This document shows positions 1 to 1,120 of a stretch of 1,120 bases of DNA, piece after piece. The stretch is from Naegleria gruberi. Lineage: Eukaryota. The notes under the pieces are model-generated. The model worked only from the letters and a program-made list of their open reading frames with translations, was not told where the DNA came from and did not search any database. The stretch's first letter is position 1. Every line of letters starts with the position of its first letter. The translations under genes and the position numbers were made by a program. The stretch is from assembly GCA_000004985.1 (NCBI GenBank), contig GG739547.1. One strand, given 5' to 3'.

Positions 1-40
1 TCTAATTACACCATATAAACCAATTCTGCATATAACAGAC

Positions 41-451
41 ATGATTGATGAGGAATTATTGAAGGATGAGGAAATAATTTTGGATTTTGCGAATTATAAT
101 TTGAAAAATTGTTCAAGGTTTAATAGAGGTTCAATATTGAGTGATTTATTGAATGGAGAAAGGAGAGATGTTGGATTAAAGTTTTTAGCAATGCATTATG
201 AAGAATATAGACAGTTTACAGATGAATACGGGTTTTCATCGGATGATATTATGTTCATGGTGAAACAAAATGGATTAATTCTTGAAATATTTACAAATCA
301 TCGTTCGTGTAGAGATATTGTGAGAGAGGCAGTTCAGCAAAATCCATCAGTTTTGGATTTAATGTGTAACAACTATATTTCTAAGGAGGTATTTTTGGAA
401 GGAGAGTATATTAATATCCAAAATCCATCCCAAACCAGTTTTTGGATATAG
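41..451 (+). CDS. 5' portion of a DUF4116-like repeat protein gene, as the ORF currently stands. The last 16 sense codons (401-448) and the TAG stop at 449-451 lie inside the left TIR of the inserted element; host-derived coding sequence ends at 401. The frame is open from position 2, so the true start may be ATG 41 or upstream of the window.
   Basis: The 136-aa ORF contains repeat units DDIMFMVKQNGLILEIFTNHRSCR and DIVREAVQQNPSVLDLM. These match the DUF4116 (PF13475-like) pattern, which I recognise from memory rather than from a search. There is no in-frame stop between position 2 and 41. Arginine is encoded by AGA/AGG, consistent with an AT-rich genome. No Shine-Dalgarno-like sequence is evident upstream of ATG 41. 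Confidence 0.6.
   Translation: MIDEELLKDEEIILDFANYNLKNCSRFNRGSILSDLLNGERRDVGLKFLAMHYEEYRQFTDEYGFSSDDIMFMVKQNGLILEIFTNHRSCRDIVREAVQQNPSVLDLMCNNYISKEVFLEGEYINIQNPSQTSFWI
394..401. repeat. Target-site duplication, left copy (TTTGGAAG).
   Basis: Perfect 8/8 direct repeat of 816-823, immediately abutting the outer end of TIR-L. It is not palindromic, so it is distinct from the inverted repeat. Confidence 0.7.
402..451. repeat. Left terminal inverted repeat (TIR-L).
   Basis: GAGAGTATATTAATATCCAAAATCCATCCCAAACCAGTTTTTGGATATAG. It pairs with the reverse complement of 765-815. Confidence 0.8.
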
Positions 452-468
452 GTGAATAAAAAATCGGC

Positions 469-766
469 AAAAAGCCAAATTGAACCAAAAAGCCAAAATC
501 TAAATCCAAAAATAAGTCAAGAAATTTCCACTAAAAAATGAATTATTTCAAAAATAAAATATTCCAAATTTATATCGAAAAATTGTTGATTTATTGCAAT
601 TAGTATTGATAATAATCTAATAAATATTCGTAGTGTGATTTGCCTGCATTCCTTGTTGACAATTGCTCAAACACAACACATTTTCAAATAATATTATCCA
701 ATCCGAGATTTATCGAAAAAGCCAAGCCCGTAAAAATTCAGCCAGATTGCCCTTTTTAAAAAGCCA
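469..766 (+). repeat. Dispersed subterminal direct repeats inside the element. AAAAAGCCA occurs four times (469-477, 487-495, 716-724, 758-766), and TTTAT(A)TCGAAAAA occurs twice (about 567-581 and 708-720).
   Basis: Read directly from the sequence. All copies are in the same orientation and cluster just inside each TIR. The left pair is spaced 18 bp apart. Confidence 0.5.
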
Positions 767-815
767 TATCCAAAAAAAGCGGTTTGGGATAGATATTGGA
801 TATTAATATACTCTC
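765..815. repeat. Right terminal inverted repeat (TIR-R).
   Basis: The reverse complement of 765-815 is GAGAGTATATTAATATCCAATATCTATCCCAAACCGCTTTTTTTGGATATG. The first 20 nt are identical to TIR-L. There are 4 substitutions and one 2-nt T-run length difference over the rest. Confidence 0.8.
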
Positions 816-1120
816 TTTGGAAGCCATTGATAGGAGGACAGATTTTGGAAGTTCATTCTCTATTCCTAACAATTTGATTGAAGATAGGGATGTAGTGTTA
901 AAAGTTGTGGAAAAACATGGAGTTGCTTTGGAACAAGTAAGTGAGACATTTAAATCGGATAGGGAAATTGTATTGACCTCAATTAGGAATAACGGATTGG
1001 CTCTGAGATATGCTAATAAGATATTCTTAACCGATAAGGAAATAGTGAGAGAGGGTCTTTGCGCAAATGGATCAATATTAAATTTTCTATGCAATGAATA
1101 TAAGAACGATAGAGAATTGG
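793..1120 (+). CDS. 3' portion of the same DUF4116-like repeat protein gene. The frame is open from the TAG at 790-792 to the window end, and host-derived sequence resumes at 816/824. There is no in-frame ATG, and the gene continues beyond 1120.
   Basis: Frame 1 (codon starts at positions of the form 3k+1) translates to ...AIDRRTDFGSSFSIPNNLIEDRDVVLKVVEKHGVALEQVSETFKSDREIVLTSIRNNGLALRYANKIFLTDKEIVREGLCANGSILNFLCNEYKNDREL. This has at least three tandem repeats of about 25 aa of the form D+EIVLxxxxxxGxALxYAxxxxxxD+E. There is no stop through position 1120. The only ATG nearby (917) is out of frame. Confidence 0.6.
   Translation, partial: MLDINILSLEAIDRRTDFGSSFSIPNNLIEDRDVVLKVVEKHGVALEQVSETFKSDREIVLTSIRNNGLALRYANKIFLTDKEIVREGLCANGSILNFLCNEYKNDREL
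816..823. repeat. Target-site duplication, right copy (TTTGGAAG).
   Basis: Perfect 8/8 direct repeat of 394-401, immediately abutting the outer end of TIR-R. Confidence 0.7.

What the first reader, a model, noticed from the sequence alone, without database searches (positions are those of the whole stretch)
41..1120. Single DUF4116-repeat protein gene split into a TIR-tailed 5' ORF and a start-less 3' fragment
As it stands, the 5' ORF acquires a 16-aa C-terminal tail (GEYINIQNPSQTSFWI) and a TAG stop encoded entirely by the left TIR. The 3' part (>=100 codons, running off the window) has no in-frame ATG. The insertion therefore either inactivates the gene or yields a truncated product. The perfect TSD and well-preserved TIRs suggest the event is evolutionarily recent. 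In AT-rich intracellular bacteria and giant viruses, repeat-protein families such as ankyrin, LRR and DUF4116-like proteins are common targets and effector candidates. Loss or phase-like disruption of one member by a MITE would be functionally interesting.
Basis: partly seen in the sequence, partly recalled or inferred. Interest (0 to 1): 0.6.

Follow-up and report, generated by a model that had tools for sequence, protein, structure and literature searches.

The report
Small transposon interrupting a Naegleria gene
A 414-base miniature DNA transposon has landed inside one copy of a repeat-protein gene of the amoeba Naegleria gruberi, while an uninterrupted copy of the same gene exists elsewhere in the assembly; this is an ordinary transposon insertion difference, though it suggests DNA transposons moved recently in this organism.

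Summary
A 414-bp element (402-815) has perfect 20-bp terminal inverted repeats, arms of about 52 nt, and a perfect 8-bp target-site duplication, TTTGGAAG. It interrupts a DUF4116-repeat gene. Removing the element plus one duplication restores an open frame.

The decisive evidence is new. The window is a whole 1120-bp scaffold of the eukaryote Naegleria gruberi (NAEGRDRAFT_77122). The restored protein matches residues 99-330 of NAEGRDRAFT_49131 at 231/232 residues with no gap. That protein is 605 aa and lies on a 427.6-kb scaffold. The junction KEVFLE|AIDRR is unchanged there, so it is an empty site.

The window is therefore an insertion-bearing allele, or a very recent duplicate, of an intact gene.

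- The host is not a bacterium or giant virus.
- ATG 41 is internal Met112. The frame is open from base 2.
- The truncated product would be 247 aa, not 136.
- No Pfam match spans the junction.
- An intact copy exists, so the gene is not lost.

The element's superfamily and copy number could not be determined, because no N. gruberi DNA was reachable. An 8-bp duplication favours hAT-like. Splicing of the element cannot restore the exact protein.

Verdict: a new member of a known kind, of modest interest.

The parts
2..401 (+). 5' part of the interrupted DUF4116 gene: codons 99-231 plus the first base of codon 232, in NAEGRDRAFT_49131 numbering. The frame is open from base 2 and runs off the 5' edge of the window.
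   Evidence: The translation LITPYKPILHITDMIDEE... matches P0025 residues 99-231, with one difference. Pfam DUF4116 matches residues 70-115 of the ORF.
41..43 (+). ATG used as the start by the database model NAEGRDRAFT_77122. It is really internal Met112 of the full gene.
   Evidence: P0025 has 111 residues upstream of this Met, and the 13 codons before it in the window match P0025.
380..382 (+). TCT (Ser) codon. This is the only residue that differs from the intact copy, which has Tyr225.
394..401 (.). Left copy of the 8-bp target-site duplication, TTTGGAAG.
402..815 (.). Non-autonomous TIR element (MITE-like), 414 bp, 28.7% G+C, with no coding capacity.
   Evidence: TIR and TSD. The longest internal ORF is 47 aa and no peptide hits Pfam. 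It folds as a terminal hairpin of about 50 nt, z = -4.95. An empty site exists in P0025.
402..421 (+). Left terminal inverted repeat, perfect core GAGAGTATATTAATATCCAA. The imperfect arm continues to about 453-462.
449..451 (+). TAG stop inside the left arm. It ends the interrupted reading frame after 16 extra residues.
469..494 (+). Two subterminal AAAAAGCC motifs at 469-476 and 487-494, within the 12-nt direct repeat CAAAAAGCCAAA at 468-479 and 486-497.
716..765 (+). Two further AAAAAGCC motifs at 716-723 and 758-765, in the same orientation as the left pair.
796..815 (-). Right terminal inverted repeat, perfect core, the exact reverse complement of 402-421.
816..823 (.). Right copy of the 8-bp target-site duplication, TTTGGAAG.
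824..1120 (+). 3' part of the interrupted gene: the last two bases of codon 232 through codon 330. It runs off the 3' edge of the window and has no in-frame ATG within the window.
   Evidence: The translation is identical to P0025 residues 232-330. Pfam DUF4116 1.3e-23.

Best explanation
The window is a complete 1120-bp scaffold of the Naegleria gruberi genome assembly. It carries an insertion-bearing allele, or less likely a very recent duplicate, of the DUF4116-repeat gene NAEGRDRAFT_49131.

A 414-bp non-autonomous cut-and-paste DNA transposon (MITE-like) inserted inside codon 232 of this 605-codon, apparently intronless gene.

Inferred mechanism: a transposase supplied in trans binds the 20-bp terminal inverted repeats, and possibly the four subterminal AAAAAGCC motifs. 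It makes a cut staggered by 8 bp at TTTGGAAG. Gap repair then duplicates those 8 bp.

Shown consequence: the reading frame runs 16 codons into the left arm and stops at TAG. If the allele is expressed, it can give only a 247-residue product. That product lacks the four best DUF4116 units and 374 of the 605 residues. The downstream part has no start codon in the window.

The uninterrupted copy on the 427.6-kb scaffold keeps the function, so the organism is at most heterozygous for the disruption. The little scaffold most likely exists because the 422-bp insertion kept these reads from merging with the main haplotype.

The superfamily is unresolved. The 8-bp duplication, which fits the nTnnnnAn pattern, makes a hAT-like element the best guess, at about 0.45.
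For: Host and identity: the 5' ORF is EFC35224.1/XP_002667968.1, NAEGRDRAFT_77122, and its longest contig is 1120 bp.

Empty site: the same 90% cluster contains NAEGRDRAFT_49131 (605 aa, on a 427,589-bp contig). join(2..401,824..1120) translates to 232 aa, of which 231 are identical to residues 99-330 with no gap. The junction reads KEVFLEAIDRR in both.

Transposon hallmarks: a perfect 20-bp TIR and a perfect 8-bp TSD. None of 2000 random windows reached a 20-nt inverted repeat.

Non-coding and hairpin-forming.

Not a cloning-host IS: no match in 5,426 E. coli genomes or in plasmids.

The repeat register of 24-26 residues is kept across the join, and the junction aligns to the conserved DKEIVLAAV core of homologs.

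The closest named relative, in N. fowleri, is one continuous intronless gene.

No other N. gruberi protein was among the 24 cluster representatives returned, apart from the cluster that holds P0001 and P0025. This favours an allele over membership of a recently expanded paralog family.

Naegleria is described as mainly a heterozygous diploid, and heterozygosity is reported for N. gruberi (PMC9928731).
Against: No second copy of the element was found anywhere, so its repeated, family nature is not shown. The scans were: TIR 20-mer in viral, metagenome and prokaryote collections; composite peptide search; exact ORF look-ups; and 83 fetched loci. These collections do not appear to hold the N. gruberi genome, so this is absence of data and not evidence of absence.

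The empty site is shown only at the protein level. The DNA of NAEGRDRAFT_49131 could not be fetched.

Allele and recent paralog cannot be told apart without that DNA. A scaffold this short may rest on one or two reads, so the insertion could be a rare variant in the sequenced culture, and the Ser/Tyr difference could be a read error.

The TIR begins with GAGAG, not the usual hAT YARNG.
Confidence: 0.85

Rival explanations
1. The insertion-bearing contig is a recent paralogous duplicate at a second locus, not an allele of NAEGRDRAFT_49131. On this reading the element disrupted a redundant copy, which is becoming a pseudogene.
For: Only protein-level identity (231/232) is available. That is also compatible with a very young duplicate. 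DUF4116 genes form multigene families in many organisms.
Against: No other N. gruberi protein appeared among the 24 cluster representatives returned, and the 90% cluster has exactly two members. A separate locus would normally assemble into a longer scaffold. An orphan of 1.1 kb is what a heterozygous indel produces in a Sanger assembly (inference). Naegleria is reported to be heterozygous diploid (PMC9928731).
Confidence: 0.1
2. The element is removed from the transcript as an intron, as in introner-like transposon intronisation, so the interrupted copy still makes a near-normal protein.
For: The host is a eukaryote with spliceosomal introns. In-frame GT...AG pairs exist. One is 389-792: host donor GAG|GTATTT with acceptor TAG| in the right arm, 404 nt, replacing VF by ILDINILS. 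Another is 406-833.
Against: No GT...AG pair removes exactly the 422 nt needed to restore the original sequence. None of the nine possible registers inside the duplication begins with GT. The pair that uses the element's own GTATAT (406) with the duplication's AG (823) leaves 4 extra bases and shifts the frame. The candidate acceptors have no pyrimidine tract. About 400 nt is five times the median Naegleria intron of 80 bp in N. lovaniensis (PMC6125883). The database model calls no intron. The three papers that hold both 'introner' and 'Naegleria' have neither word in title or abstract and were not read further.
Confidence: 0.04
3. The structure is an artefact of cloning or assembly, such as a host IS hopping into a clone or a chimeric read, and does not exist in the Naegleria genome.
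For: The scaffold is only 1120 bp and may rest on very few reads (inference from its length).
Against: The element has no similarity to any of 20,395 E. coli records or 72,556 plasmids. Its G+C content of 28.7% is like that of the Naegleria flanks at 32%. A chimera would not create a perfect 8-bp duplication flanking perfect inverted repeats at a site that is in frame once the element is removed.
Confidence: 0.01

Closest known systems
[quoted passage not shown]
   Same: The element is small (414 bp), AT-rich and non-coding. It has perfect terminal inverted repeats and a perfect target-site duplication, folds as a hairpin, and sits in a gene for which an empty site is known.
   Different: Multi-copy status and a transposase-bearing parent with the same ends are part of the usual definition of a MITE. 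Neither could be shown, because no N. gruberi genomic DNA was reachable.
hAT superfamily non-autonomous elements
   Same: The duplication is 8 bp. TTTGGAAG fits the hAT target pattern nTnnnnAn. The inverted repeats are short (about 20 bp perfect) with subterminal short repeats. Positions 2-5 of the terminus (AGAG) fit YARNG. The consensus patterns are recalled from the hAT literature, so this is a lead and not a test.
   Different: The first terminal base is G, not C or T. No hAT transposase partner was identified. P, Merlin, Novosib and Zisupton elements also make 8-bp duplications.
Mutator/MuDR superfamily; a full-length MuDRF element is reported in N. gruberi (PMC3164196)
   Same: The superfamily is present in this species. 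The terminus GAGAG resembles the GAGA/GGGA starts of many Mutator TIRs (recalled, not tested).
   Different: [quoted passage not shown] Here the duplication is exactly 8 bp and cannot be extended.
Introner elements (transposon-derived introns of Micromonas, Aureococcus and others)
   Same: A TIR/TSD element sits inside a coding exon of a protist gene, with GT and AG dinucleotides near its ends.
   Different: The splice sites do not allow exact or frame-preserving removal using the element end plus the duplication. No family of such introns is known in Naegleria from the papers searched.

Membership tests
MITE / non-autonomous class II TIR element | Terminal inverted repeats at both ends | tested here: met
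   20/20 perfect, then 33/35, with arms of about 52-60 nt. The longest perfect inverted repeat in 2000 random windows was 16 nt.
MITE / non-autonomous class II TIR element | Target-site duplication of fixed length directly flanking the inverted repeats | tested here: met
   TTTGGAAG at 394-401 and 816-823, perfect and not extendable.
MITE / non-autonomous class II TIR element | Small size (under about 800 bp) and no transposase coding capacity | tested here: met
   414 bp. The longest internal ORF is 47 aa. Ten element peptides gave no Pfam hit at E<=1.
MITE / non-autonomous class II TIR element | Evidence of mobility: a matching empty site | tested here: met
   At the protein level. P0025 reads straight through the site, 231/232 identical with no gap. 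The DNA of the empty site was not obtainable.
MITE / non-autonomous class II TIR element | Many similar copies in the same genome | not testable with these tools
   The N. gruberi genome is not in any DNA collection offered. TIR scans gave only chance hits. Peptide and ORF look-ups found nothing.
MITE / non-autonomous class II TIR element | Autonomous relative with the same ends that encodes the transposase | not testable with these tools
   Same reason: no N. gruberi DNA was reachable.
hAT superfamily | 8-bp target-site duplication | tested here: met
hAT superfamily | Target consensus nTnnnnAn and terminal motif YARNG (consensus recalled from the literature) | tested here: inconclusive
   TTTGGAAG fits, with T at position 2 and A at position 7, but in AT-rich DNA this happens by chance about 1 time in 8. 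The terminus GAGAG fits positions 2-5 but not position 1.
hAT superfamily | Mobilised by a hAT (DDE plus hATC dimerisation domain) transposase | not testable with these tools
   No partner element is available.
Mutator/MuDR superfamily | Duplication typically of 9 bp (9 bp for the MuDRF element reported in N. gruberi) | tested here: not met
   The duplication is 8 bp and a 9-bp reading needs a mismatch on either side. The 9-bp figure for MuDRF is from PMC3164196.
DUF4116 (PF13475) repeat proteins | Pfam score above the gathering cut-off of 24.9 bits | tested here: met
   Reconstructed fragment 111.2 bits. The 5' half alone scores 39.3 and the 3' half 82.7. Intact P0025 scores 227.4 bits with 6 matched stretches.
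Introner-type transposon-derived intron | Splice sites at the element ends or in the duplication that allow frame-preserving removal | tested here: not met
   No GT starts any of the nine exact-excision registers. The pair 406/823 leaves +4 nt. Only cryptic in-frame pairs that alter the protein exist.

The most novel reading that the evidence does not exclude
The insertion is a newborn intron caught as a polymorphism. On this reading, transcripts of the interrupted allele are spliced from the host donor GAG|GTATTT (389) to the TAG| acceptor inside the right inverted repeat (792). That gives an in-frame mRNA in which VF is replaced by ILDINILS in a degenerate repeat unit. It would be the first introner-like intron gain seen in Heterolobosea, with the pre-insertion allele still present in the same strain.
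Probability: 0.04. Interest if true: 0.65.

Novelty: new member of a known kind. Interest (0 to 1): 0.3.

Why it matters
There are three modest points.

1. The insertion has a perfect duplication and perfect inverted repeats, and the empty site is still present in the same assembly. That indicates cut-and-paste transposition was recent in N. gruberi NEG-M. Published surveys report a low transposable-element content for this organism (0.28% TEs by one estimate, 5.1% repeats by another) and mostly unclassified repeats. An active MITE and transposase pair would interest a field in which I recall genetic tools being scarce (my own knowledge, not checked here).

2. It is a concrete example of structural heterozygosity in a species whose ploidy and sexuality are still inferred indirectly.

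3. The RefSeq/UniProt entry XP_002667968.1 / D2W6S8 is an annotation artefact. It starts at an internal Met and ends inside a transposon, and should be read as a fragment of the NAEGRDRAFT_49131 gene.

None of this changes what is known about how MITEs work.

Tried and rejected
**Bacterial or giant-virus origin.** Rejected. The ORF is an annotated N. gruberi protein. Viral DUF4116 relatives are only 28-44% identical.

**Exact look-up of the contig DNA for P0001 and P0025.** Not on record, although N. fowleri DNA is reachable.

**TIR 20-mer scans.** Viral contigs gave 0 hits. Metagenomes gave 1 hit, inside what looks like a DNA ligase/BRCT-type gene by eye (not tested). Prokaryotic genomes gave 1 hit, inside ordinary coding sequence. 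In both hits only one arm is present and nothing beyond the 20-mer is similar, so they are chance matches.

**Composite 714-aa query of all six-frame element peptides against the 5.8-billion protein set.** Nothing at E<=10. This test cannot see matches of about 18 residues or fewer; even P0001's own tail failed. It would have seen the 42-residue tail expected from the opposite orientation. The third protein search was not spent on a shorter version, because the gain in sensitivity would be marginal.

**Exact look-up of seven window ORFs (six in or overlapping the element, one mostly antisense to the gene).** None is in the collection.

**Rfam.** Only a sub-threshold chance hit, rli31, at 23.7 bits against a gathering score of 80.

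**E. coli and plasmid similarity, to test for a cloning artefact.** None.

Not found. The intact-copy comparison replaces it.

**Literature on Naegleria MITEs, transposon superfamilies and introners.** Nothing specific beyond MuDRF. The N. gruberi genome paper (PMID 20211133) is not held.

Full report
**1. What is in the sequence.**

The window contains a 414-bp segment at 402-815. Its ends are exact reverse complements over 20 bp: GAGAGTATATTAATATCCAA at 402-421 and 796-815. Similarity continues at 33/35, and with one small gap the arms reach about 52-60 nt.

Directly outside the two ends lies the same octamer, TTTGGAAG, at 394-401 and 816-823. Neither a 7-bp nor a 9-bp reading fits without a mismatch.

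I ran a chance control on 2000 random windows with the same first-order composition. The longest perfect inverted repeat was 16 nt. Only one window combined an inverted repeat of at least 10 nt with a flanking direct repeat of at least 6 nt.

The segment has these further properties:
- Its G+C content is 28.7%, against 32% in the flanks.
- It has no ORF longer than 47 codons.
- Its peptides hit no Pfam family.
- It matches no Rfam family above threshold.
- As single-stranded DNA it folds into a long terminal stem (z = -4.95).
- It carries four copies of AAAAAGCC, at 469, 487, 716 and 758. All four are on the same strand and none occurs elsewhere in the window.

These are the hallmarks of a non-autonomous cut-and-paste transposon.

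**2. The interrupted gene.**

ORF 41-451 ends with 16 residues (GEYINIQNPSQTSFWI) and a TAG, both supplied by the left arm. The frame downstream of the element is open from 793 to the window edge and has no Met.

Removing the element plus one octamer (422 nt) puts the two parts in one frame. The joined fragment scores 1.6e-32 on PF13475 DUF4116, and each half scores on its own.

The Pfam matches do not span the junction. It lies between matches 70-115 and 141-188. However, the repeat register of 24-26 residues is kept across the join. In an alignment with nine homologs, the junction peptide KEVFLE|AIDRR falls on the conserved 'DKEIVLAAVKQNG' core of a repeat unit.

**3. Where it comes from, and the decisive comparison.**

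The 5' ORF is a database protein: EFC35224.1 / XP_002667968.1, 'predicted protein [Naegleria gruberi]', NAEGRDRAFT_77122. Its only contig is 1120 bp long, so the window is that whole scaffold. The host is therefore a free-living eukaryotic amoeboflagellate, not a bacterium or a giant virus.

The same 90%-identity cluster holds a second N. gruberi protein that the representative-only hit table had hidden: NAEGRDRAFT_49131 (P0025). It is 605 aa, lies on a 427,589-bp scaffold, and has six DUF4116 matches at 8.1e-69.

The window frame is in fact open from base 2. The translation of join(2..401, 824..1120) is 232 residues, and 231 of them are identical to residues 99-330 of P0025 with no gap. The junction reads KEVFLEAIDRR in both. 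The single difference is Ser (TCT, 380-382) against Tyr225.

This is an empty site, shown at the protein level.

It also corrects the gene model. ATG 41 is internal Met112. The insertion lies inside codon 232 (G|CC). The interrupted copy could encode at most 231+16 = 247 residues. That product would lose the four best repeat units (252-351) and 374 of the 605 residues. The next in-frame Met is residue 333, just beyond the window.

**4. Allele, paralog or artefact.**

Apart from the cluster holding P0001 and P0025, no other N. gruberi protein was among the 24 representatives returned. The next named hit is an N. fowleri protein at 29% identity, encoded by one continuous intronless gene.

Naegleria is described as mainly a heterozygous diploid, and heterozygosity is reported for N. 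gruberi (PMC9928731). The assembly has 784 scaffolds (PMC6125883).

A 1.1-kb orphan scaffold that differs from a large scaffold by a 422-bp insertion and one residue is what a heterozygous insertion produces in a shotgun assembly. That step is inference. I rate allele at about 0.75, and a rare insertion in the sequenced culture or a recent paralog at about 0.1 each.

A cloning-host IS is excluded, because the element matches nothing in 5,426 E. coli genomes or 72,556 plasmids.

**5. How it works.**

Shown:
- the TIR and TSD architecture;
- the precise position of the insertion in the gene;
- the premature stop;
- the existence of an intact copy.

Inferred from the established mechanism of DDE cut-and-paste transposons:
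- A transposase made elsewhere in the genome recognises the 20-bp ends, and possibly the AAAAAGCC subterminal motifs.
- It cuts the target with an 8-bp stagger, and repair duplicates the octamer.

Perfect ends and a perfect duplication argue for a recent event.

On the superfamily, 8-bp duplications are typical of hAT, but P, Merlin, Novosib and Zisupton elements make them too. TTTGGAAG fits the hAT target pattern nTnnnnAn, and positions 2-5 of the terminus fit YARNG. The first base does not fit. These consensus patterns are recalled from the literature, so they are leads and not tests.

A Mutator-type element (MuDRF) is documented in N. gruberi, but it makes 9-bp duplications (PMC3164196). 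That does not fit the 8 bp seen here.

I put hAT-like at about 0.45 and leave the superfamily open.

**6. The splicing alternative.**

Because the host is a eukaryote, I listed every GT...AG pair that would link the two frames without a stop.
- None removes exactly 422 nt. No register within the duplication begins with GT.
- The pair that uses the element's own GTATAT (406) with the duplication's AG (823) leaves four extra bases.
- Cryptic in-frame pairs exist, such as 389-792, which would replace VF by ILDINILS. They lack pyrimidine tracts and are about five times longer than the 80-bp median Naegleria intron (PMC6125883).
- The database model calls no intron.

I could not test this with RNA data. 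I rate it at about 0.04.

**7. What could not be done.**

No N. gruberi genomic DNA is reachable with the tools. The element's copy number, its autonomous partner and the DNA of the empty site therefore remain untested.

All searches for further copies were negative or gave chance hits.

The papers I could search report low TE content and mostly unclassified repeats in N. gruberi (0.28% TEs in one survey and 5.1% repeats in another). I found no description of Naegleria MITEs or introners.

**8. Verdict.**

The host, the gene boundaries and the functional weight need correcting. This is an insertion difference against an intact copy in the same strain. DUF4116 itself remains of unknown function and is predicted to fold as an alpha-solenoid (PMC8078820).

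It is a new member of a known kind. Its interest is modest, mainly as evidence of recent DNA-transposon activity and structural heterozygosity in Naegleria, and as a correction to a database entry.

Noticed in passing
window 469-476, 487-494, 716-723, 758-765: The octamer AAAAAGCC occurs four times, only inside the element, and always on the + strand. It is therefore a direct repeat and not part of the inverted symmetry. I estimate roughly 0.03 occurrences by chance in the whole window (my own rough calculation, not a tool result). These may be subterminal transposase-binding repeats.
   Followed up: partly
window 380-382: The only residue that differs between the window and the intact copy is Ser (TCT) here against Tyr225 in NAEGRDRAFT_49131. 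It lies 12 nt upstream of the duplication. It could be an allelic SNP or a read error in a low-coverage scaffold.
   Followed up: partly
window 41-451 (database entry XP_002667968.1 / EFC35224.1 / UniProt D2W6S8): The public 136-aa 'predicted protein' is an annotation artefact. It begins at an internal Met of a 605-codon gene and its last 16 residues and stop codon are transposon sequence.
   Followed up: yes
window 389-792: A cryptic in-frame GT...AG pair: host donor GAG|GTATTT with the acceptor TAG| inside the right inverted repeat. It would splice out most of the element and leave a 6-residue net insertion. There are no RNA data to test it.
   Followed up: partly
window 756-1094, minus strand: A 112-codon ORF runs antisense to the DUF4116 gene and ends inside the right arm of the element. 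It is not in the protein collection and is most likely spurious.
   Followed up: partly
L004-L083 (IMG/VR contigs, many labelled GVMAG): DUF4116 repeat proteins are very common on giant-virus contigs: 149 of 198 candidate stretches were confirmed, at 28-44% identity to the Naegleria protein. A preprint on Symbiodiniaceae lists DUF4116 among the domain annotations of virus-derived transfers. I did not pursue whether NAEGRDRAFT_49131 is itself of viral origin.
   Followed up: no
L003 3001-4074 (N. fowleri VFQX01000068.1): The closest named relative, FDP41_009420 (357 aa, 29% identity), is a single uninterrupted ORF. It sits next to an RNase P/MRP p29 gene and a DAO-domain (FAD-dependent oxidoreductase, PF01266) gene. 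Orthology with the N. gruberi gene is not established.
   Followed up: partly
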